Of a DNA stretch of 13,407 nt, positions 1,423-13,407 are shown piece after piece (the first letter of the stretch is position 1; each line of letters begins with the position of its first letter). The DNA is taken from positions 1 through 13,407 of the IMG/VR virus record IMGVR_UViG_2537562172_000003; one strand, given 5' to 3'. Both the position numbers and the translations under genes were made by a program. The notes under the pieces are model-generated. The model searched no databases and was not told where the DNA came from. It saw only the letters and a list, made by a program, of their open reading frames with translations. This stretch comes from a virus. Lineage: Duplodnaviria; Heunggongvirae; Uroviricota; Caudoviricetes.

Positions 1423-2489
1423 TTGATTTCAATTTTGTCCCACTCCCTGCCTCTGTCATCACGATACTGTGATGCCATGGTGTCCGACTTATGCCCGAGA
1501 AGATGTTGAGCAAACTTATCGCTTATCTGCTTCTCATAGAGTCTTGCAGACAAACTGCGCAACTCGTGAAAGGTAGGCGGATCCCCTTCGAAGGAAAGAC
1601 CTGATGCTTTTCGTGCGCGCATAAAATACCTTGATACTGTGCCGGATGAAAGCGGTTCACGACGAGTAGATGCAATTATGGTTTCTCCGCCAAGAATCTC
1701 TTTGCATTTATCAAGTGTTTCCTTCATTGATATCCCGAGAGCATCAACATGCAATGTTGTTGGGATGGCAATTTTTACGCCTGTTTTGCTTTGCTCGACA
1801 TAAAGATATCCATCTACGATATCAGACCACTTCATTTCGCATAAATCACCAACTCGTTGCCCGGTAACAACAGCCAGTTCCATTGCAAGTCTGAGCCAAC
1901 ATGGTGATGATTCTGCTGCTTGATAAATTTTCAGGTATTCGTCAGCCGTAAGTCTTGATCTCCTTACCTCTGATTTTGCTGCGCGAGTGGCAGCGACAGG
2001 GTTTGTTGTTATATGGCCTTCAGCTATTGCCTCTCGGAATGCATCGCTCAGTGTTGATCTGATTAACTTGGCTGACGCCGCCTTGCCCTCGTCTATGTAT
2101 CCATTGAGCATTGCCGCAATTTCTTTTGTGGTGATGTCTTCAAGTGGAGCATCAGGCAGACCCCTCCTTATTGCTTTAATTTTGCTCATGTAATTTATGA
2201 GTGTCTTCTGCTTGATTCCTCTGCTGGCCAGGATTTTTTCGTAGCGATCAAGCCATGAATGTAACGTAACGGAATTATCACTGTTGATTCTCGCTGTCAG
2301 AGGCTTGTGTTTGTGTCCTGAAAATAACTCAATGTTGGCCTGTATGGCTTCAGTGATTGCGATTCGCCTGTCTCTGCCTAATCCAAACTCTTTACCCGTC
2401 CTTGGGTCCCTGTAGCAGTAATATCCATTGTTTCTTATATAAAGGTTAGGGGGTAAATCCCGGCGCTCATGACTTCGCCTTCTTCCCAT
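1419..2489 (-). CDS. int: Lambda integrase (tyrosine recombinase), 356 aa
   Basis: ORF translation matches lambda Int essentially along its whole length as remembered (MGRRRSHERRDLPPNLYIRNNGYY ... DDRGREWDKIEIK); overlaps xis 3' end as in lambda; adjacent to the P' arm. Confidence 0.96.
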   Translation of the reverse strand: MGRRRSHERRDLPPNLYIRNNGYYCYRDPRTGKEFGLGRDRRIAITEAIQANIELFSGHKHKPLTARINSDNSVTLHSWLDRYEKILASRGIKQKTLINYMSKIKAIRRGLPDAPLEDITTKEIAAMLNGYIDEGKAASAKLIRSTLSDAFREAIAEGHITTNPVAATRAAKSEVRRSRLTADEYLKIYQAAESSPCWLRLAMELAVVTGQRVGDLCEMKWSDIVDGYLYVEQSKTGVKIAIPTTLHVDALGISMKETLDKCKEILGGETIIASTRREPLSSGTVSRYFMRARKASGLSFEGDPPTFHELRSLSARLYEKQISDKFAQHLLGHKSDTMASQYRDDRGREWDKIEIK

Positions 2490-2685
2490 TTCTGATCCTC
2501 TTCAAAAGGCTACCTGTTACTGGTCGATTTAAGTCAACCTTTACCGCTGATTCGTGGAACAGATACTCTCTTCCATCCTTAACCGGAGGAGGGAATATCC
2601 TGCACTCGCGTACCCATCGACGAACTGTTTCAAGGCTTCTTGGGCGTCGCTGGCGTGCGTTCCACTCCTGAAGTGTCAAGTACAT
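2467..2685 (-). CDS. xis: Lambda excisionase, 72 aa
   Basis: Translation MYLTLQEWNARQRRPRSLETVRRWVRECRIFPPPVKDGREYLFHESAVKVDLNRPVTGSLLKRIRNGKKAKS matches lambda Xis; 23-nt overlap with int. Confidence 0.96.
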   Translation of the reverse strand: MYLTLQEWNARQRRPRSLETVRRWVRECRIFPPPVKDGREYLFHESAVKVDLNRPVTGSLLKRIRNGKKAKS

Positions 2686-2711
2686 CGCAAAGTCTCCGCA
2701 ATTACACGCAA

Positions 2712-2733
2712 GAAAAAACCGCCATCAGGCGGC
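2712..2733 (-). terminator. Putative intrinsic terminator between the 55-aa ORF and xis
   Basis: Minus-strand hairpin CCGCC-TGAT-GGCGG (plus coordinates 2719-2732) followed by a T6 run (A-run 2713-2718 on the plus strand). Confidence 0.4.
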
Positions 2734-2892
2734 TTGGTGTTCTTTCAGTTCTTCAATTCGAATATTGGTTACGTCTGCATGTGCTATCTGCGCCCACAGC
2801 ATCCAGTGGTCATAGCAGTCGCTGATGTTCTCGGCTTCGATAACTCTGTTGAATGGTTCTCCATTCCATTCACCTGTGACTCGGAAGTGCAT
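2725..2892 (-). CDS. Small 55-aa hypothetical protein upstream of xis (probably the lambda orf55 equivalent)
   Basis: Not in the ORF track (under 60 aa). Minus-strand ATG at 2890-2892 preceded by GGAG; translation MHFRVTGEWNGEPFNRVIEAENISDCYDHWMLWAQIAHADVTNIRIEELKEHQAA; stop at 2725-2727. The 39-nt gap to xis matches what I recall for a 55-aa ORF in lambda, from memory only. Confidence 0.5.
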   Translation of the reverse strand: MHFRVTGEWNGEPFNRVIEAENISDCYDHWMLWAQIAHADVTNIRIEELKEHQAA

Positions 2893-2904
2893 TTATCATC
2901 TCCA

Positions 2905-2929
2905 TAAAAAAAACTCGCCGTAGCGAGTT
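2905..2929 (-). terminator. Putative intrinsic terminator
   Basis: Minus-strand hairpin AACTCGC-TACG-GCGAGTT (plus 2912-2929) followed by a T7-8 run. Confidence 0.4.
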
Positions 2930-3088
2930 CAGATAAAAGAAATCCCCGCGAGTGCGAGGATAGTTATTCATTGTCGATATTTACATTTATTTCGAATATC
3001 TTTACTGGGTAATCGCCAAAGTCATATATTTTTTATTCTGTTTTATAAGCACTACCAAGTACTGCTTATTACAAATAAGAAAAGGCTG

Positions 3089-3118
3089 AAAAAAATATTT
3101 AAGGCCACAACTGTGGCC
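3089..3118 (-). terminator. Putative intrinsic terminator downstream of the DUF1311-like gene
   Basis: Perfect 6-bp stem GGCCAC/GTGGCC with 4-nt loop (3103-3118) just after the stop at 3129, followed on the minus strand by a T-rich run (plus-strand A-run 3089-3097). Confidence 0.45.
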
Positions 3119-3128
3119 CTAAATTTAC

Positions 3129-3827
3129 TTACGGCACTGCGTTAATCAGATTACAAATACCTCTTTTGGCAGGGTCTGAATTCAACTTCTGAAAATTGGC
3201 GTTCAACATAGCCGTGTGTAAGTGATTCTCAACCTCAAAGAATAGGTCGATTTTGCCCTCTTTGGCTGCCTGTTTCTTCCAAATATTCACTTGGTCATCA
3301 GCAATACGACTAGCGCAAGTGAACAAGAACGAACTGCCTCTAGGAATGGATGTCGTGCTGTAATACTCACCATCTACTTCTACATATTTAGCTCGGAATG
3401 ACTCTAAGGTTAGCTTATTGCCGTTCTTGACCGACTTAGCTTCTGCCTTACTTGTATCTTCCTGCTCTTTAGAATGTTTCTGCGCCGACGTGGGTATGTC
3501 ATTGGCCGCTGTTACGCTGACTGAACTCCCCAAACCTTTGAGGCCATTAATTTGGATAAGATAAGCCAGCTCCAGAGCCTTATTATCAGTGAGTTTTCCA
3601 CGCATATTTACCCACTGACGTTGAACCATTTTTAGGGTGTCTGCGTTCTCTGGGTTTCCTTTGAGGGCACTAGAATAGGCAGAGCTAAGCTGTTCGTCTA
3701 ATTTTGACAGACGTTCGTTCTCGCAGATTTTATGTTCGATTGCTGTCGAAGCCTTTTGGCAGTCAAAGCTGGCTGCAAATGCACCCGGCGATGCCACTAA
3801 CAATGATGCCAGTAGGATATTTTTCAT
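3129..3827 (-). CDS. Secreted protein with an N-terminal DUF1311 (LprI-like lysozyme-inhibitor) type domain, 232 aa; non-lambda cargo
   Basis: ORF 3129-3854; preferred start is ATG at 3825-3827 (MKNILLASLLVASPGAFA, signal peptide with AFA-A cleavage motif) preceded by GGAG. Mature N-terminus SFDCQKASTAIEHKICENERLSKLDEQLSSAYSSAL resembles the conserved Cys-containing DUF1311 motif, assigned from memory. Not a lambda gene. Confidence 0.7.
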   Translation of the reverse strand: MKNILLASLLVASPGAFAASFDCQKASTAIEHKICENERLSKLDEQLSSAYSSALKGNPENADTLKMVQRQWVNMRGKLTDNKALELAYLIQINGLKGLGSSVSVTAANDIPTSAQKHSKEQEDTSKAEAKSVKNGNKLTLESFRAKYVEVDGEYYSTTSIPRGSSFLFTCASRIADDQVNIWKKQAAKEGKIDLFFEVENHLHTAMLNANFQKLNSDPAKRGICNLINAVP

Positions 3828-3957
3828 ATTCACTCCATAAATACAAAAGCGCATTACTATAGCACTTAACCGATCGCTTATCTCGCCCGTTCGTCATTCT
3901 TATCTAACCAGAACATGCGACTGCCACAGCACATGTCGAGGATTGCTGCATGTCCAG

Positions 3958-4371
3958 TCACTGGTTGCCTCCTTTGCGAAGCTGGGCGGCTAACTCATCA
4001 CATATGTGCGTCAAAGAGCAAAGTTTGATTGATGGATGTTCGCGCATCATCTCCACCCCCTGCGCCCGTACTTCAGCCAGGAAAGCATCGGTGGCTGGCA
4101 TATTTCCTGTTGCCTTCATGGCCTCCAAAATAACCAGAACACCATCTCTCCCAATCTCCTCGCAGATAACCTCGGTGCTGTCGCCAACAACATCGCAGAA
4201 TTCCTGAACTGCTTTACGAGCCAGCTCATTCTCCGCCGCCAGCGCCGAAAACTTCTCGTGTGCCAACTTAACAGCTGCATCAGCCTGCTTAATTGACTCA
4301 GTCGCTTTCTGGTGGTCTTCGGCCAGCCCTGCTAAATCAGCCTCCAGTTCGGCTACGGGACCAGCCATCAA
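3958..4371 (-). CDS. Hypothetical 137-aa protein (coiled-coil-rich N-terminus), possibly a remnant or fusion at the substitution junction
   Basis: Longest ORF in this segment and in the same orientation as the operon. Its first codons lie inside the bet remnant in another frame, so the true start is uncertain. No motif recognised. Confidence 0.35.
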   Translation of the reverse strand: MMAGPVAELEADLAGLAEDHQKATESIKQADAAVKLAHEKFSALAAENELARKAVQEFCDVVGDSTEVICEEIGRDGVLVILEAMKATGNMPATDAFLAEVRAQGVEMMREHPSIKLCSLTHICDELAAQLRKGGNQ

Positions 4372-4606
4372 CGCCCACCACCGGAACGATGCCGTTCTGC
4401 TTATCAGGGAAGGCGTAAATTTCTTTCGTCCACGGATTAAGGCCGTACTGGTTGGCGACGATCAACAATGCGATGAACTGCGCATCGCTGGCATCACCTT
4501 TAAATGCCGTCTGGCGAAGAGTGGTGATCAGTTCCTGTGGGTCGACAGAATCCATGCCGACACGTTCAGCCAGCTTCCCAGCCAGCGTTGCGAGTGCTGT
4601 ACTCAT
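4337..4606 (-). pseudogene. bet: Truncated lambda bet (Red-beta): first ~84 codons, then 5 unrelated codons and a stop
   Basis: Translation MSTALATLAGKLAERVGMDSVDPQELITTLRQTAFKGDASDAQFIALLIVANQYGLNPWTKEIYAFPDKQNGIVPVVGVDGWSR matches the lambda Bet N-terminus, then diverges (SRTGG-stop); lambda Bet is 261 aa. exo is absent. Confidence 0.88.
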
Positions 4607-4611
4607 CCGTT

Positions 4612-5028
4612 TTATACCTCTGAATCAATATCAACCTGATGGTGAGCAATGGTTTCAACCATGTACCGGATGTGTTCTGCCATGCGCTCCTGAAACTCAA
4701 CATCGTCATCAAACGCACGGGTAATGGCTTTTTTGCTGGCCCCGTGGCGTTGCAAATGATCGATGCATAGCGATTCAAACAGGTGCTGGGGCAGGCCTTT
4801 TTCCATGTCGTCTGCCAGTTCTGCCTCTTTCTCTTCACGGGCGATCTGCTGGTAGTGACGCGCCCAGCTCTGAGCCTCAAGACGATCCTGAATGTAATAA
4901 GCGTTCATGGCTGAACTCCTGAAATAGCTGTGAAAATATCGTCCGCGAAATGCCGGGCTGATTAGAAAAACAGGGAAGGGGGGTAGTGAATGCTTTTGCT
5001 TGATCTCAGTTTCAGTATTAATATCCAT
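4612..5028 (-). CDS. gam: Lambda Gam (RecBCD inhibitor), 138 aa
   Basis: Translation matches lambda Gam ([15 protein letters not shown]...[10 protein letters not shown]) with a few substitutions relative to my recollection (e.g. SLPPFPV here vs SLTPFPV). Confidence 0.95.
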
Positions 5029-5861: not shown

Positions 5862-5889
5862 CGTGAAAATGAAACCCGCCTGAGCGGGT
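5862..5889 (-). terminator. Putative intrinsic terminator downstream of the orphan 289-aa gene
   Basis: Minus-strand stem ACCCGC-TCAG-GCGGGT (plus 5874-5889) followed by TTTCATTTT; overlaps the stop codon at 5889-5891. Confidence 0.45.
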
Positions 5890-6758
5890 TATGACCACTT
5901 TTTGTTTGGATTTCGTTGGTGAGCGTGGTTTACAGGATTATTTGATATACCCCATAACTCTGACTCGCTTATCTCTACACGAGAGAAAGACCTGCTTTCT
6001 TTCAGTTCTTTTATAAACCTAGAACCTACGATGACATCTATTGTCCCAGAAAGTTCTTGTAAAAGATCTTTGTTTTTTCTGAGGAAGAAAACATCTTCTT
6101 TATATTTAATTTTTACATAGAATTTATTCTGTATTTTTAATATATCAAAGCATGGCAGATATCTATATCCCTCATGCTTTCGCCACTGCTTAACAATTAT
6201 AACATCTCTTTCATTTACTGCATTAATCAGCCCAAGACCAAGTATAGGTATGAATATTCTATTGTCTGCCGAAAGCGTACAATTATTACCACCAGGCAAA
6301 TATGTATAAATCATGTCGGAATTTTTATACGCATCAACGAATGCACGTAAGAATCGTACATATTTTTGCCATCCGTTTATACCAAATTTACCATATAAGT
6401 ATTCTTTATTTGTTAGAAGAAAACTATTTGTATCAGGAGCCTTATCTACAGACCTGTCGATAAGATCTCCAACTACGTTTACAAAGTCAAAGACAGAGTT
6501 TAATAAGAACAATTGTCTTTCAGTCGGGCGAATTTCAATTATGTAGCCTGGATGAAGACGATATTGCATCTGCTTACGAAGTATGCTGAACGCTTGGGTC
6601 CGGGCATCTGAAAGCAACTTCCTGTCGCCATCGCCGTGAGCATTGTTTCTAATAAAACTGATATAATTTGCTAATTTTTCAGCCTCTTTTTTGTGTTTTT
6701 TTCGCTCTGATGCTGAGTCTATTGGTTTTGGTATGGACTTGTAATCAATTTTCTTCAT
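5889..6758 (-). CDS. Orphan AT-rich protein of unknown function (289 aa from ATG 6758; 293 aa from ATG 6770), in the ral-sieB slot; candidate superinfection-exclusion or abortive-infection factor
   Basis: Uninterrupted 294-codon ORF; visibly AT-rich compared with flanking lambda genes. First ATG (6768-6770) overlaps the N stop codon (ATGA); second ATG (6756-6758) has a well-spaced GAGG SD. Lys-rich N-terminus; no Walker, HTH or catalytic motif recognised. Not a lambda gene. Confidence 0.75.
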   Translation of the reverse strand: MKKIDYKSIPKPIDSASERKKHKKEAEKLANYISFIRNNAHGDGDRKLLSDARTQAFSILRKQMQYRLHPGYIIEIRPTERQLFLLNSVFDFVNVVGDLIDRSVDKAPDTNSFLLTNKEYLYGKFGINGWQKYVRFLRAFVDAYKNSDMIYTYLPGGNNCTLSADNRIFIPILGLGLINAVNERDVIIVKQWRKHEGYRYLPCFDILKIQNKFYVKIKYKEDVFFLRKNKDLLQELSGTIDVIVGSRFIKELKESRSFSRVEISESELWGISNNPVNHAHQRNPNKKWS

Positions 6759-6766
6759 TACGTACC

Positions 6767-7090
6767 TCATGCCAATGGAATGGATTTCCCTTTAACCTTT
6801 TGTCTTCCTTGACAAGTTATACCGAACTCACTTGGCTTGCTATACCAAACTCGATGATTCTTGCGCTCAATACGTTGCAGGTTGCTTTCAATCTGTTCGT
6901 GGTATTCAGCCAGCACCGTAAGGTCTATCGGATTCAGTGCGCTTTCTACTCGTGATTTCGGTTTGCGATTCAGCGAGAGAATAGGGCGGTTAACTGGTTT
7001 TGCGCTTACCCCAACCAACAGGGGATTTGCTGCTTTCCATTGAGCCTGTTTCTCTGCGCGACGTTCGCGGCGGCGTGTTTGTGCATCCAT
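6767..7090 (-). CDS. N: Lambda N antiterminator, 107 aa
   Basis: Translation from MDAQTRRRERRAEKQAQWKAANPLLVGVSAKPVNRPILSLNRKPKSRVESALNPIDLTVLAEYH... matches lambda N (arginine-rich motif at the N-terminus). The track ORF extends 26 codons upstream into the leader. Confidence 0.93.
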   Translation of the reverse strand: MDAQTRRRERRAEKQAQWKAANPLLVGVSAKPVNRPILSLNRKPKSRVESALNPIDLTVLAEYHEQIESNLQRIERKNHRVWYSKPSEFGITCQGRQKVKGKSIPLA

Positions 7091-7443: not shown

Positions 7444-8799
<1,356 letters not shown>

Positions 8800-8839: not shown

Positions 8840-8918
8840 ATCAAATTAAACCACACCTATGGTGTATGCATTTATTTGCATACATTCAATCAATTGTTAT
8901 CTAAGGAAATACTTACAT

Positions 8919-9350
8919 ATGGTTCGTGCAAACAAACGCAACGAGGCTCTACGAATCGAGAGTGCGTTGCTTAACAAAATCGCAATGCTTGGAACTGAGA
9001 AGACAGCGGAAGCTGTGGGCGTTGATAAGTCGCAGATCAGCAGGTGGAACCCTGAGACGGTCGCAAGATGGCTTGATGCGATGGCAAACCTTGAGCGACG
9101 AAACGCGCAGTTTAATGAGTTTAAAGCCGAGTGGATGAGCGCGAATGGCAATCCAGGACAATCGCGTAATGGCGGTCAGATATTGGGGTTGGATGTTAAA
9201 AAAGGTGAATCATTGGGGAGTGCCGTTAAGCGGTATATGTCAATGAATACTGACGCAGCGCCAGCACAAGATTCGACACCTTCAGGAGAACCACGGTATC
9301 AGGTTGGATCATATACCTCAAAATCAGGCATTCAATTTACGGTGGAATGA
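8919..9350 (+). pseudogene. cII: Truncated cII: codons 1-43 fused in frame to ~100 codons from the 3' end of a late (gp20-like ejection protein?) gene
   Basis: MVRANKRNEALRIESALLNKIAMLGTEKTAEAVGVDKSQISRW matches lambda CII residues 1-43; after about 9047 the sequence is unrelated to CII (lambda CII is 97 aa). The stop overlaps the start of the gp16-like gene, which suggests the tail of the upstream gene in a P22-like late operon. Confidence 0.75.
8928..8941 (-). promoter_or_regulatory. CII-binding site of pRE (TTGC-N6-TTGC)
   Basis: Minus-strand TTGCGTTTGTTTGC inside the first codons of cII, as in lambda pRE. Confidence 0.5.
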
Positions 9351-11191
9351 TGAAAGTAACTGCAAACGGTAAGACATTTACCTTCCCTGATGGTACGAGC
9401 ACGGAAGATATTGGCACCGCCATTGATGAGTATTTTGCTGGTCAGGCTGTTCAGCAACAAACAGTTAATCAGGCCAATAATGCACCAACACGGGAAGAAC
9501 CATCATTAATGCAACAAGCTGGCGATTGGCTCACTGGTGGTCAAAGTGCAGGGCAAATTGCAGAACAGGCTGGTCGTGGTCTGGTAAACATACCATTTGA
9601 CGTATTGCAGGGTGGCGCAAGTCTGATTAATGCAATCAGTCAGGGGCTTGGTGGGCCAAAAGTATTGGATGATGTCTATCGTCCAGTCGATCGACCGACA
9701 GACCCTTATGCGCAAGCTGGAGAAACAATTGGCGGGTATTTAGTTCCAGGAGTTGGAACGGCAGGAAGCATGGCTATTGGATCACTGGCAGAGGCCGCAA
9801 ATCAGAAAGGCGATTTCGCACAAAATGCAGCTAAAAATGCCGGAGTTAACCTTGTCGCTCAGGGTGTTCTTTCCGCAGCAGCAAAGGGAATAGGGCGTGG
9901 AATAACGGCTATAAAAGGTGATATTGCGCCAGAAGTGGCGAAGAAAATTGCCACATCAGAATCGATGGGCGTGACACCAATGACATCTGATGTTATCCCG
10001 CCGAAAAATGCTTTCACTCGCGGCCTTACTCAGGATTCCGAGGGGGCTTTGCTCGGGACAGGCTCAAAGCGAGCGGAGCAATATGCAACGCGTAGTAAGC
10101 TGGTAAGTAATTATTTTGACCGTTTTGGTGAGTACAACCCGGATGATGTGGTGAAATCTCTGACCACCACGTTAAGGGGGCGGAAGGATGCCGCTGGCGC
10201 TGTTATCAATGACGTCACCAATAAAATGGGTAATGCCGCAGTTGATACCACAAATACCATGAATGCTCTGAATACAGCGATCGCAAGACAGGAACGGCTT
10301 GGGACGTCTGCTAATCAAAGCCTGCTTACATCCTTGCGTAACCTACGTGAAGAATTAGCAAACCCTGCAACTGATTTGGATGTTACGTTTGATCTCTTGC
10401 GTCAGCATAGAACGGCATTTAGATCTAATGTTCAGGGAGATGCTATGGTCTTCCCCAACCAGGCAAAAGCAGCTACCAATATGGTAGAGAATGCAATGTC
10501 AAAAGACCTTCGTAACGCAGTTGCTAAAAACCTCGGTGCTTCAGACGCAGCAAAATACCTTAAAGCAAATTCCGATTATGCAAACGTTTATAATAAGGTG
10601 CTTAATAAAAACATTGCTAACAAGCTCAACAAGGCAAGCAGTGAAGCCAGTCCTGAACTTATAAATACCGTTGTATTAAGCAGAAAACCATCTGACGTGA
10701 AACGAATTTGGAGCGCATTGGATGATAAAGGGAAAGATGCTATGCGTGCAGCTTACGTCAGCAAAATAGCGGAAAAGGCCGGTGACTCTCCAGCCAAGTT
10801 CATCACTGAAGTTAATAAGCTGAAATCTCAGTCAGGTGGTGAAATTTACAACACTATTTTTTCTGGAAAGCACATGAAAGAGCTTGATGCTCTTCATGAA
10901 GTTCTACAGCAAACAGCAAGGTCAGACACCGCAAATGTAGTAACTCAGACGGGGCAATCGCAAGCCAACAGGATAAGGACGATTGGCGCAACTGCGACTC
11001 TTGGCGTATCAATGGGGATTGAGGCTGGTTTCGGTGCAATGATGCGCTTGTATGAGTCCAAAGTAGCAAGGAATGCTCTCTTACGTCTGGCAAACACTAA
11101 AGCTGGAACGCCGGCTTATGAAAGAGCGCTAAATAATGCTGCAAATGCGATACGCCCTATACTTGCAAGCCAGATTACAGCAGAACAATAG
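9347..11191 (+). CDS. P22 gp16-like ejection (DNA-transfer) protein, 614 aa
   Basis: Large Ala/Gly/Gln-rich protein; size and position (immediately before the tailspike) fit gp16-type injection proteins; start ATGATG overlaps the upstream stop (alternative start 9350). Confidence 0.65.
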
Positions 11192-11242
11192 ATAAATAAT
11201 TAATTAAGCACATAACTACTGACAGATAACCAACGCAACGAC

Positions 11243-11264
11243 CCAGCTCCGGCTGGTTTTTTTA
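11243..11264 (+). terminator. Putative intrinsic terminator after the ejection-protein gene
   Basis: Hairpin CCAGC-TCCG-GCTGG (11243-11256) followed by T7 (11257-11263). Confidence 0.5.
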
Positions 11265-11321
11265 TTCCAAAAATTCACCGTAGCCACGCTGCGGCGATTC
11301 CTTGCATCTGGAGCAAATTAA

Positions 11322-13407
11322 ATGACAGACATTACAGCCAATGTGATCGTATCGATGCCTTCGCAACTCTTCACTATGGCGCGTTCTTTTAAAGCCGTAG
11401 CCAATGGCAAAATTTATATCGGTAAAATTGACACTGACCCGGTAAATCCTGAAAACCAGATTCAGGTTTATGTAGAAAACGAAGATGGTTCTCATGTTCC
11501 TGTTTCGCAACCAATCATCATTAACGCTGCTGGATATCCGGTATACAACGGACAGATTGTCAAATTCGTTACTATACAGGGCCATTCTATGGCTGTTTAT
11601 GATGCGTACGGTTCTCAGCAGTTCTATTTTCCTAATGTCCTGAAGTATGACCCTGACCAATTAAGGCAAGAATTAGCTTCTGACAGAGGAGCAACATTAT
11701 CATTAAGTCAGATAGCTACTTCTTACGGTCTTGATTTCTCGTTAGGCGGTGTATGGCAGGAGGGGGCGTTATCTTATGTTGATAACTGGTGGTGGTATAA
11801 TAATAAAATCTACACCGGTGGTAGCGGAAATCTGCCATCTATCCCATCAGCACCGTGGTATCCAATTCGCCCGGGATACAATTTTAAACTTAACAGACTT
11901 TATTACCTCCAAGGGTGTGAGCGATATTCTTGACGTAGTGGACTGGCAATGGGCTTTTGATAGCGCAAAATTAAACGCCAAAAACACAACAGTTATAGAT
12001 ATGGACGGTCGTGAATACGCGGTTACCGGAGGCGGTTACGTTATGCATCAGGGAGTTAGTCTGAGAGGTGCTCGCGATGCTATGCAAAACCCTTCTGTCG
12101 ATGGTTTGAGTATTGTTTATATTAACAAGACACCTTCAGCCTCTGATGTCATTTTTATTCTACGCGGCGGAAACTTGCTTGAAGACTTTGGCGTCTACTA
12201 TGCTCAACAAACATATGCGGCGCTATCTGCCATGGTTGACGTCGGAATTCTGTTTAAAAAGCTACCAGGAACTGGTGGGACAGATGCTATAAATACAAAA
12301 GGCTGCATAGTTAAAGGGGTAAGCGCCTGCGGTGTGAGTAAGTTTTACTCCGGTTCTTATGCAGATAACGCGCCTGGTGAGTACGACGATGTTAGTCGAG
12401 TCGCTGTTACACCTACACCTTATGGGCCATCGTTTAGGCTTGGAATTAGCACAGACTTACTTCGATACCAAACTATTCATATAAACGCCAATGTCGTCAG
12501 TGCGTACAGAGCAAAGTACGGTGTTGACATTTCACCTCGTGCGCTACCATCAAGCTATACATCTTGCGTGGGATTTCTTGTTGAACGCGCGGATGGATGT
12601 ACGATTCACGACATTCTTACTTATGGTGTCCCGTATCCTGTCGTACTGGGCGCTGTTGGCGCTACCGGAGGGACTCATGGGTGCAGTGTCAATTTATCTC
12701 AATGCGCATTCGATGCAACGCAAACACCTGTCTACATAAACTGCCCGACAGGTGCGTTTGGTGTTCAACTTTCAAACTGTCAGGTTGTATTCGACGAGAA
12801 ATTCGGAGATTCTAACGGGCAATTAATATACTTAGGATCCGCGGCAAGCAATCATCAAGTCTCGCTTTCTAATATTAAAGTGCAAATGACAGCCAATTTT
12901 AGCTACCGACCTGTTCGCGCTGTTTCTGAGAGTAAACAAAACAGGATAATGTTTAGTGATTGCGCGTTAACAGGTAGCGCTAATAACCTTGATGAAGGAA
13001 CTGGCAACCGTATAAGTTTAATCCAAAGTACAAGGAATTTAGGTAACCTAAACTTAATGACCAATCTAACGCCGGAGAGTTCGTTGGTTTCAAGTATGGG
13101 GGAGCTCAATACTATTGTTAGACATTCAGTTAGTGTCACTGTTCAACAAGGAGCAACATTTGCGAACATCTCAGTTACATACCCTTACTCAGGATTTATA
13201 TCGGCACCTAATGTCAAGACAGAAATAACATCGGTTAGTATTTCTGGTCAAAGTGATGACACGATGTACACATCAAGGGCGTATGGCAGAAGTCAATCAG
13301 GGTGCGTCATCAGAGTGAACTTGTCGAAGGCTGCAGTGGCAACTGGTGCACTGACAGTAGATCTATACCTGATTGGAACAGTAAGGGGGGAACTAACATC
13401 TGTGTAG
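11322..13407 (+). CDS. P22/HK620-type tailspike: conserved N-terminal head-binding domain plus divergent receptor-binding domain; reading frame shifts +1 in the 11749-11933 overlap
   Basis: N-terminus [113 protein letters not shown] matches tailspike head-binding domains; SD GGAG upstream. The 11322-11933 ORF stops and the protein continues in the +1 frame (11749-13407, TAG at 13405-13407). Confidence 0.75.

What the first reader, a model, noticed from the sequence alone, without database searches (positions are those of the whole stretch)
3129..3827. Prophage-encoded secreted DUF1311-like (lysozyme-inhibitor-type) protein with an unknown C-terminal domain
The mature N-terminus carries the Cys-containing DUF1311/LprI-like motif as I remember it, and the C-terminal ~120 residues are unassigned. 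A secreted cargo gene with its own terminator and an SD-linked start in a prophage early region is a typical lysogenic-conversion gene (envelope protection or exclusion).
Basis: partly seen in the sequence, partly recalled or inferred. Interest (0 to 1): 0.5.

Follow-up and report, generated by a model that had tools for sequence, protein, structure and literature searches.

The report
Phage cassette encoding exported two-domain DUF1311 protein
A small self-contained gene cassette in a decayed lambda-like prophage of E. coli encodes an exported protein with a DUF1311 ("LprI") head and a previously undescribed tail domain. The same protein family occurs in lytic T4-like phages, and its database name "lysozyme inhibitor" is not backed by evidence.

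Summary
Window 3129..3827 (minus strand) is a real 232-aa gene with a GGAG ribosome-binding site, a Sec-type signal peptide (AFA|AS), a Pfam LprI/DUF1311 hit above the curated cut-off, and a strong intrinsic terminator just after the stop.

It is a portable cassette. Window 3089..3896 is shared with Salmonella phage-plasmid SSU5, and the gene sits in lambdoid and P22-like prophages at three attachment sites, in 125 of 5426 complete E. coli genomes. RefSeq already calls it "lysozyme inhibitor LprI family protein".

New here:
- The DUF1311 head is a 2-cysteine variant.
- After a fast-evolving linker comes a conserved ~95-aa C-domain with its own invariant cysteine pair. It has no Pfam, PDB-sequence or fold relative and is very rare.
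- The whole two-domain protein also occurs in virulent T4-like Aeromonas and Klebsiella phages, among early genes.

The "lysozyme inhibitor" reading is weak. The MliC domain credited with LprI's activity is absent, and the only DUF1311-only protein tested (ScwA) gave no lysozyme protection.

My best guess (about 0.3) is a periplasmic immunity or exclusion factor that binds an incoming envelope-acting protein, probably a cell-wall hydrolase. The gene is ordinary in kind, uncharacterised in detail and of moderate interest.

The parts
3089..3896 (-). Portable cassette: the only segment shared with Salmonella phage-plasmid SSU5 (83% nt identity). It runs from about 70 nt upstream of the ATG to just past the terminator.
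   Evidence: the same unit is found in 125 of 5426 complete E. coli genomes
3856..3864 (-). Candidate extended -10 promoter, TGcTATAGT (TG at 3864..3863, hexamer at 3861..3856). The -35 is weak. Untested.
   Evidence: Read. Conserved as TGaTATAGT in SSU5. Not called by the consensus scan, which requires a -35.
3833..3836 (-). Shine-Dalgarno GGAG, 5 nt before the ATG
   Evidence: identical in SSU5
3129..3827 (-). Coding sequence, 232 aa plus stop (WP_000789831.1 in an identical E. coli locus)
   Evidence: PHROG 4675 over the full length, E = 7.8e-94
3774..3827 (-). Sec signal peptide, aa 1-18, with predicted cleavage at AFA|AS
   Evidence: the Aeromonas phage 31 homologue is annotated 'contains predicted signal peptide'
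3537..3773 (-). N-domain, aa 19-97: a DUF1311/LprI-type helical domain in a 2-Cys variant (C23, C35). It lacks the second Cys pair found in related DUF1311 heads.
   Evidence: dN/dS 0.12
3417..3536 (-). Variable, low-complexity Ser/Thr/Lys/Glu-rich linker, aa 98-137, predicted disordered
   Evidence: dN/dS 0.71
3132..3416 (-). C-domain, aa 138-232: an unassigned domain predicted as a short helix, a beta-hairpin (invariant G153 at the turn) and three helices, with invariant C171 and near-invariant C225 (lost only in a truncated member)
   Evidence: (pLDDT 81-90); dN/dS 0.07
3087..3124 (-). Intrinsic terminator: a 12-bp stem with a 4-nt loop (3124..3097) followed by AUUUUUUU
   Evidence: the hairpin is conserved in SSU5

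Best explanation
**Anatomy (shown).** The gene is an autonomous accessory cassette: a candidate extended -10 promoter, an SD, the ORF and a terminator. It lies in the int-proximal variable region of a defective lambdoid prophage. The product is exported through Sec, and the signal peptide is removed after AFA. The mature ~23.6-kDa protein lives in the periplasm.

It has three parts:
- a helical DUF1311-type head (probable C23-C35 disulfide);
- a flexible ~40-aa tether;
- a compact, previously undescribed ~95-aa C-domain (probable C171-C225 disulfide).

**Mechanism (inferred).** The protein is an immunity or superinfection-exclusion factor. It binds and neutralises a protein that acts in the periplasm from outside. 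The most likely target is a peptidoglycan-cleaving enzyme, such as the tail-tip lysozyme or transglycosylase of a competing phage, or a T6SS muralytic effector.

The C-domain would supply target specificity. The DUF1311 head would serve as a scaffold or localisation module, much as a lipid anchor replaces it in some relatives. This role would benefit a prophage or phage-plasmid in the lysogen and a virulent phage early in infection.
For: **Shown**
- Export signals and two conserved Cys pairs.
- DUF1311 membership.
- Strong purifying selection on both domains but not on the linker.
- Cassette structure and mobility: the unit is shared with SSU5 and sits in prophages at ybhC, at tRNA-Thr/proA and at mdtA.
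- The gene is still intact in a prophage that has lost exo, most of bet, and its replication, lysis and head genes.
- Every genomic context examined is a mobile element: lambdoid and P22-like prophages, SSU5-like phage-plasmids, T4-like Aeromonas and Klebsiella phages, an AlpA-type island and a serine-recombinase island in Serratia.
- In T4-like phages it lies among early genes (between primase 61/denV and dCTPase 56). In phage Marfa the periplasmic gp5-lysozyme inhibitor gene spackle lies in the same early-gene cluster, on the other side of primase 61.
- In P0060 and P0067 a lipobox (LTGC) and a Pro-rich tether carry the same C-domain without the ASFDC-type DUF1311 head motif and its Cys pair. 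This points to the C-domain as the working end.

**From the literature**
- DUF1311/LprI-domain periplasmic proteins are encoded next to lysozyme-like T6SS effectors as predicted immunity proteins (PMC9796082; PMC12135965).
- The DUF1311 protein Etsi4 rescues toxicity of the periplasm-acting effector Etse4 (PMC12981562).
- ScwA, a DUF1311 protein, controls levels of the lytic transglycosylase MltD (PMC7933661).
Against: - No target is known and no partner gene is conserved next to it. There is no adjacent effector or hydrolase in any phage context.
- No PADLOC defence model matches.
- The DUF1311 domain itself has never been shown to inhibit an enzyme. ScwA gave no lysozyme protection.
- The C-domain resembles no known inhibitor fold.
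- Marfa-like phages carry both spackle and this gene, so it is not a simple replacement for spackle.
- The promoter is only a sequence candidate, so expression in lysogens is unproven.
Confidence: 0.3

Rival explanations
1. It modulates the host's own peptidoglycan-remodelling enzymes, as ScwA does. The periplasmic protein would bind or stabilise an endogenous lytic transglycosylase or endopeptidase and so tune wall turnover. This could help phage DNA entry or exit, lysis timing, or lysogen fitness.
For: ScwA is the only DUF1311-only enterobacterial protein studied. It is periplasmic, disulfide-bonded and raises MltD levels (PMC7933661). A Pseudomonas DUF1311 gene (PA3021) scored in a beta-lactam resistome screen alongside PG enzymes (PMC7038268). 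Presence in virulent phages fits a lytic-cycle helper.
Against: ScwA carries its DUF1311 domain at the C-terminus of a different architecture. There is no sequence relation outside that domain. The conserved, rare C-domain is not explained. A moron with its own terminator in a dead prophage suggests benefit to the lysogen rather than to lysis.
Confidence: 0.2
2. It excludes superinfecting phage without involving a muralytic enzyme. The protein would mask a receptor from the periplasmic side, or block the DNA-injection channel of incoming phages, in the manner of Cor/Llp lipoproteins or T4 Imm.
For: It is found in mobile elements, in an early-gene position and in a moron layout. Lipoprotein variants of the C-domain (P0060, P0067) recall Llp/Cor-type exclusion lipoproteins (own knowledge).
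Against: There is no similarity to any known Sie protein. It is a soluble periplasmic protein rather than a membrane one. Hosts as different as Aeromonas, Klebsiella, Serratia and E. coli would need a common target.
Confidence: 0.18
3. It is a true inhibitor of animal c-type or g-type lysozyme and protects the lysogen from host innate immunity, making it a lysogenic-conversion virulence factor.
For: The Pfam and RefSeq name says so. M. tuberculosis LprI inhibits lysozyme (Sethi 2016, as cited). Many carrier strains come from poultry, pigs or patients.
Against: There is no MliC/PliC, Ivy or PliI/G domain or fold. LprI's activity is assigned to MliC, and ScwA is negative. Virulent phages of the aquatic genus Aeromonas carry the family, and for them resistance to animal lysozyme has no obvious value.
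Confidence: 0.08
4. It has no role of its own in the lysogen. It is simply a delayed-early pL-operon passenger, read through by N-antiterminated polymerase, whose product acts only during lytic growth, for example in lysis timing or inhibition.
For: It is co-oriented with the pL operon between the red genes and xis/int. Only a weak promoter candidate is present. Virulent phages carry homologues.
Against: It is kept intact under strong purifying selection in a prophage that can no longer grow lytically. The TGnTATAGT element and the terminator travel with the gene into SSU5.
Confidence: 0.12

Closest known systems
LprI (Rv1541c) of Mycobacterium tuberculosis, namesake of Pfam PF07007
   Same: Both are exported envelope proteins with an N-terminal DUF1311 domain followed by a second domain (for LprI's architecture; for this protein).
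   Different: LprI is a lipoprotein whose second domain is MliC, the part credited with lysozyme inhibition. Here there is no lipobox and no MliC, and the second domain is unrelated and undescribed.
ScwA (SL1344_0490) of Salmonella Typhimurium
   Same: Both are soluble periplasmic, disulfide-bonded DUF1311 proteins without MliC, and both were horizontally acquired.
   Different: In ScwA the DUF1311 domain is C-terminal in a 275-aa helical protein. ScwA has four Cys in a different arrangement and is chromosomal, not phage-borne. Its known effect is on MltD levels. It shares no similarity with the C-domain here.
DUF1311-type T6SS immunity proteins (EHEC Etsi4; Pantoea orphan immunity genes)
   Same: Both are signal-peptide-bearing DUF1311 proteins carried on variable or mobile DNA. 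Etsi4 neutralises a periplasm-acting effector.
   Different: Those genes lie next to an effector gene in T6SS islands. This one has no effector neighbour in any context examined and carries an extra C-domain.
T4 Spackle (Sp, gp61.3)
   Same: Both are small, Sec-exported periplasmic proteins of T4-like phages encoded in the early-gene cluster around primase gene 61. Spackle is a superinfection-exclusion protein that inhibits the gp5 tail lysozyme (own knowledge; Marfa annotation).
   Different: There is no sequence or profile similarity (hhalign probability 0.8%) and no fold match. Marfa encodes both proteins.
Lambdoid morons such as bor, lom and cor
   Same: It is a self-contained unit (promoter candidate, gene, terminator) inserted between conserved phage genes. 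It is variably present and encodes an envelope protein (the moron concept is from own knowledge).
   Different: It lies in the int-proximal ea/b region rather than the late operon. The product is soluble and periplasmic, not an outer-membrane protein or lipoprotein. The family is also present in virulent phages.

Membership tests
DUF1311 / LprI N-terminal domain (Pfam PF07007) | Match to the Pfam HMM above the gathering score | tested here: met
   The score is 26.7 bits against 22, E = 7.7e-6, but only profile positions 1-70 of 106 are matched. Nine of 18 family members hit at E <= 0.01. The Serratia homologue does not hit, so the family sits at the edge of PF07007.
DUF1311 / LprI N-terminal domain (Pfam PF07007) | N-terminal Cys-x11-Cys motif right after the signal peptide, then LSxLDxxL...Y and QRxW...R helices | tested here: met
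   ASFDC23-x11-C35, LSKLDEQL, Y51 and QRQW...R76 align column for column with other DUF1311 heads.
DUF1311 / LprI N-terminal domain (Pfam PF07007) | Second conserved Cys pair between helices 2 and 3 (the family's 'conserved cysteines') | tested here: not met
   Four of the five outside DUF1311 heads in alignment A11 have the C...C pair after the QRxW...R motif. This family (and P0070) has Leu, Thr or Ala at those positions.
DUF1311 / LprI N-terminal domain (Pfam PF07007) | All-helical bundle fold | tested here: inconclusive
   Three helices are predicted for residues 33-100, but only at pLDDT 64-77 in model 1 and 44-58 in model 2. No fold search on this domain was possible.
Bona fide lysozyme inhibitors (MliC/PliC, Ivy, PliI, PliG) | Presence of one of the inhibitor domains | tested here: not met
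Bona fide lysozyme inhibitors (MliC/PliC, Ivy, PliI, PliG) | Inhibition of lysozyme activity in vitro or protection in vivo | not testable with these tools
   This needs purified protein. The only DUF1311-only precedent, ScwA, was negative (PMC7933661).
T4 Spackle family | Sequence or profile similarity to Sp | tested here: not met
   hhalign of the C-domain profile against Marfa Sp gives probability 0.8%. Sp homologues were found in 203 phage records, with no Aeromonas phage among the ten most frequent organism names.
T6SS immunity protein (DUF1311 type) | Encoded immediately next to its cognate effector in a T6SS or effector island | tested here: not met
   Neighbours are phage or mobile-element genes in all contexts.
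Phage moron (autonomous accessory transcription unit) | Own terminator directly after the gene | tested here: met
   The hairpin at 3124..3097 folds at -17.6 kcal/mol, z = -4.0, and is followed by a U-run. It is conserved in SSU5.
Phage moron (autonomous accessory transcription unit) | Own promoter active in the lysogen | tested here: inconclusive
   An extended -10 element, TGcTATAGT at 3864..3856, is conserved in SSU5. It has no good -35 and was not called by the consensus scan. No expression data are available.
Phage moron (autonomous accessory transcription unit) | Variable presence between conserved phage genes, and exchange between unrelated phages | tested here: met
   Homology to SSU5 is confined to 3089..3896. 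The cassette occurs in prophages at three att sites with different flanks. It is present in 125 of 5426 genomes.
Sec-exported periplasmic protein | Cleavable type-I signal peptide and no lipobox | tested here: met
   This rests on sequence features only: K2, a hydrophobic core of KD 2.59, and AFA|AS. These features are conserved across nearly all full-length members of the family. No dedicated predictor or experiment was available.

The most novel reading that the evidence does not exclude
The ~95-aa C-domain is a new class of periplasmic inhibitor module, functionally like Spackle but structurally unrelated. It would be tethered by a DUF1311 head or by a lipid anchor. It would block the cell-wall-piercing enzyme or the injection step of competing phages. 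Temperate phages, phage-plasmids, satellite-like islands and virulent T4-like phages of several gamma-proteobacterial genera would trade it among themselves.
Probability: 0.2. Interest if true: 0.6.

Novelty: new variant of a known kind. Interest (0 to 1): 0.35.

Why it matters
**If the exclusion/immunity reading is right,** this would be a new superinfection-exclusion or envelope-immunity protein. It would be shared by temperate and virulent phages. It would also give DUF1311, a very large family of unknown function, a defined role as a carrier for periplasmic binding domains.

**Practical points**
- The RefSeq name "lysozyme inhibitor LprI family protein" is being propagated to proteins that lack the domain credited with that activity.
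- Virulence inferences drawn from that name are unsafe, for example in avian or porcine pathogenic E. coli, where the cassette appears in many of the listed carrier strains.

**If the gene turns out to have no phenotype,** it is simply one more uncharacterised phage accessory gene.

Tried and rejected
**Annotation and defence libraries**
- NCBIfam gave only insignificant hits: CpoB, the A1S_1983 family and mevalonate kinase, all far below their cut-offs.
- PADLOC gave nothing.

**Structure and sequence searches**
- PDB sequence and profile searches of the full protein, the C-domain and the N-domain gave only chance hits such as ORC6, QCR6 and a designed protein.
- The first AlphaFold run used 17 close homologues and was poor, with mean pLDDT 46. 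The second added Aeromonas-phage and lipoprotein relatives and gave a usable C-domain only.
- The Spackle comparison was negative.

**Homologue collection**
- The second and third word-indexed homologue searches with alignments added only a handful of useful new sequences, six (P0063-P0067 and P0060, found there for the first time by this tool) and none.
- P0059 and P0062 from the representative search are repetitive proteins and were judged spurious.
A narrower one found only three Serratia loci.

**Literature**
- Sethi 2016 is not held.
- A search hit for 'LprI' in PMC10288061 could not be located in the text or supplements.
- No paper on this gene or on PHROG 4675 was found.

**Other checks**
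- GC content does not mark the cassette as foreign relative to int/xis.
- The small ORFs next to the Aeromonas homologues are acidic cytoplasmic-looking peptides and are not informative.
- I considered the alternative start at 3854 and rejected it.

Full report
**1. What is at the coordinates**

The minus strand of 3129..3827 carries a 232-aa ORF. The ATG at 3827 is preceded by GGAG at 3836..3833. The in-frame ATG at 3854 is not conserved: SSU5 has AGG there, while the next 45 nt are identical. PGAP also starts at 3827.

The window is identical to a locus of E. coli ETEC4073 that lies next to ybhC, the lambda attachment site. The gene order is int, xis, a 55-aa ORF, this gene, a chimeric 137-aa ORF, a bet remnant, gam, kil, cIII, DUF2528, a 293-aa ORF, N, a 103-aa ORF, cI, cro and a cII remnant. 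After that come unrelated ORFs and a tail-spike-like gene.

Comparison with phage Lambda_ev099 (99.8% identical over 2001..4355) shows a 2.3-kb deletion at window position 4354/4355. It removed exo and most of bet. The prophage is therefore defective, yet this gene is intact.

**2. The protein**

- **Signal peptide.** Residues 1-18 (MKNILLASLLVASPGAFA) have Lys2, a hydrophobic core of mean hydropathy 2.59 and an A-x-A cleavage site. There is no lipobox.
- **DUF1311 hit.** Pfam PF07007 matches residues 23-78 at 26.7 bits against a cut-off of 22.
- **N-domain extent.** Aligned with other DUF1311 heads recovered in the searches, the domain runs through residue ~97. It has the first Cys pair (C23, C35) and the LSxLD, Y and QRxW..R motifs. 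It lacks the second Cys pair that four of five comparators have.
- **Linker.** Residues 98-137 are a Ser/Thr/Lys/Glu-rich segment that varies in length and sequence.
- **C-domain.** Residues 138-232 form a conserved domain with invariant G153 and C171 and near-invariant C225, lost only in a truncated member.
- **Selection.** Against the SSU5 allele, dN/dS is 0.12 for the N-domain, 0.71 for the linker and 0.07 for the C-domain. This is a real, selected, two-domain gene.
- **Structure model.** AlphaFold with a diversified alignment models the C-domain at pLDDT 81-90. It predicts a short helix, a beta-hairpin with G153 at the turn, and three helices. The linker is disordered and the head is poorly modelled.

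**3. What the C-domain is not**

- It has no Pfam, NCBIfam or PADLOC hit.
- It has no PDB sequence or profile hit.
- BFVD returns only family members from Aeromonas and Klebsiella phages, plus an 86-aa phiAS4 protein that looks like a free-standing C-domain.
- It is unrelated to T4-type Spackle.
- An exhaustive phmmer search of 1.84 billion representative proteins found 12 hits. Five are genuine distant relatives and two are spurious repeat proteins. The domain is rare.

**4. Distribution**

- **E. coli.** The cassette 3089..3896 is in 125 of 5426 complete genomes. There are 109 chromosomal places, of which all but one short partial match are 98-100% identical, and 17 plasmid places at about 83% identity.
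- **Chromosomal contexts.** The copies examined lie in prophages at ybhC, at tRNA-Thr/proA (a P22-like prophage with Abc and Erf-type genes) and at mdtA. In each case the gene is in the variable region next to int/xis.
- **Plasmid contexts.** These copies are on ~100-120 kb replicons that match SSU5-like phage-plasmids of Enterobacter, Citrobacter, Salmonella and Klebsiella. Homology to SSU5 stops at 3089 and 3896, which brackets the promoter candidate, SD, ORF and terminator.
- **Virulent phages.** tblastn finds 25-31% identical full-length homologues in T4-like Aeromonas phages (31, 25, Aes012, Asfd_1, ZHF, AhFM11, CC2) and in Klebsiella Marfa-like phages, and a 72%-coverage homologue in Aeromonas phage D6 (Ludhianavirus). 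RB49-like phages share only the head.
- **Position in T4-like phages.** In the Biquartavirus and Tulanevirus Aeromonas phages the gene lies between denV (or dam) and gene 56, next to 61 and 41, among early genes. Marfa has the homologue (gp026) and also a spackle gene (gp032).
- **Lipoprotein variants.** P0060 and P0067 replace the signal-peptide/ASFDC head motif with a lipobox and a Pro-rich tether. P0067 lies in an AlpA-type island next to an integrase.
- **Serratia.** The homologues lie in an island bounded by a resolvase and a large serine recombinase. The island carries a DNA methyltransferase in one of the three Serratia loci (L015).

Every context examined is a mobile element.

**5. Regulatory signals**

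The terminator hairpin (3124..3097, then AUUUUUUU) folds at -17.6 kcal/mol with z = -4.0. It is conserved in SSU5 with a changed loop.

Upstream, TGcTATAGT (3864..3856) is a candidate extended -10 promoter. It is conserved as TGaTATAGT in SSU5. It lacks a good -35 and was not called by the consensus scan, so it remains a candidate only.

**6. What the family name is worth**

RefSeq names the protein 'lysozyme inhibitor LprI family protein'. PMC7933661 makes three relevant points:
- LprI also has an MliC domain, which is the part shown to be sufficient for lysozyme resistance.
- PF07007 itself has no experimental support for that role.
- ScwA, a periplasmic DUF1311-only protein, gave no lysozyme protection but did raise MltD levels.

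Other papers link DUF1311 proteins to immunity against periplasm-acting, cell-wall-targeting T6SS effectors. The link is by gene neighbourhood in PMC9796082 and PMC12135965. It is by rescue of Etse4 toxicity by Etsi4 in PMC12981562.

The recurring theme is an interaction with peptidoglycan-cleaving enzymes, not inhibition of animal lysozyme as such.

**7. Interpretation**

*Shown:* this is an exported, disulfide-containing, two-domain protein encoded by a portable cassette. It is under purifying selection and is shared by temperate and virulent phages and other mobile elements.

*Inferred:* a function useful to both lifestyles, located in the periplasm, is most simply superinfection exclusion or envelope immunity. 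Given the DUF1311 associations, the most likely target is an incoming muralytic enzyme.

The lipoprotein variants suggest that the C-domain is the working end and that the head or the lipid anchor merely positions it. I put this at about 0.3.

The rivals are:
- modulation of host wall enzymes, as with ScwA (0.2);
- exclusion by receptor or injection blocking (0.18);
- a lytic-cycle-only passenger (0.12);
- inhibition of animal lysozyme (0.08).

**8. Verdict**

The gene is already annotated and belongs to PHROG 4675 of unknown function. Three things are new here:
- recognition of the 2-Cys head variant;
- the rare, unassigned C-domain;
- the family's spread across temperate and virulent phages.

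I class it as a new variant of a known kind, with moderate interest (0.35).

Noticed in passing
window 7444..7755 (-): A 103-aa ORF ([20 protein letters not shown]...) has a signal-peptide-like N-terminus and lies just downstream of cI, in the slot that rexAB occupies in lambda. It has no Pfam or PADLOC hit. It may be a second exported protein co-transcribed with the repressor in lysogens.
   Followed up: partly
window 5889..6770 (-): A 293-aa ORF sits in the most AT-rich part of the window (GC 0.34-0.36), between N and DUF2528/cIII, the slot that ral/sieB occupies in lambda. It has no Pfam or PADLOC hit. It is a candidate exclusion or defence gene.
   Followed up: partly
window 3958..4606 (-), junction at 4354/4355: Relative to phage Lambda_ev099, a 2.3-kb deletion fuses a bet N-terminal remnant to the C-terminal part of an Ea22-like gene. 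This creates the 137-aa chimeric ORF 3958..4371, and exo is lost.
   Followed up: yes
window 8859..13407 (+): After a truncated cII, the prophage jumps to a 614-aa ORF with no family hit and then a tail-spike-like ORF (annotated 'head-binding domain' in ETEC4073). Replication, lysis and head genes are absent from the window.
   Followed up: partly
L006 (Klebsiella phage Marfa) 1644..1925 and 4001..4759: Marfa encodes both a spackle homologue (gp032) and the two-domain DUF1311 homologue (gp026), about 2 kb apart in the same early cluster. Among the 203 spackle tblastn matches, no Aeromonas phage is in the ten most frequent organism names. The Aeromonas phages that carry the DUF1311 family may therefore lack spackle.
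   Followed up: partly
L012 8001..8999; L015 4726..6309: In non-phage islands the C-domain protein is flanked by small envelope proteins. An AlpA island has a TM2-domain protein directly downstream. In Serratia a 164-aa secreted protein and a 78-aa single-TM protein lie directly upstream. These could be partners.
   Followed up: no
L007 (phage RB49) 4001..4759; P0070-P0074: The same 'A-x-A|ASFDC...' DUF1311 head is fused to several unrelated C-terminal domains, in RB49p262 and in bacterial proteins of 225-358 aa. This suggests the head is a general N-terminal carrier module for periplasmic domains.
   Followed up: partly
window 2893..3128: The 236-bp AT-rich spacer downstream of the gene holds two more terminator-like hairpins on the minus strand (2961..2942 and 2930..2911). 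In prophage L013 an extra 801-bp gene is inserted at about this position (window 2930-2945).
   Followed up: partly
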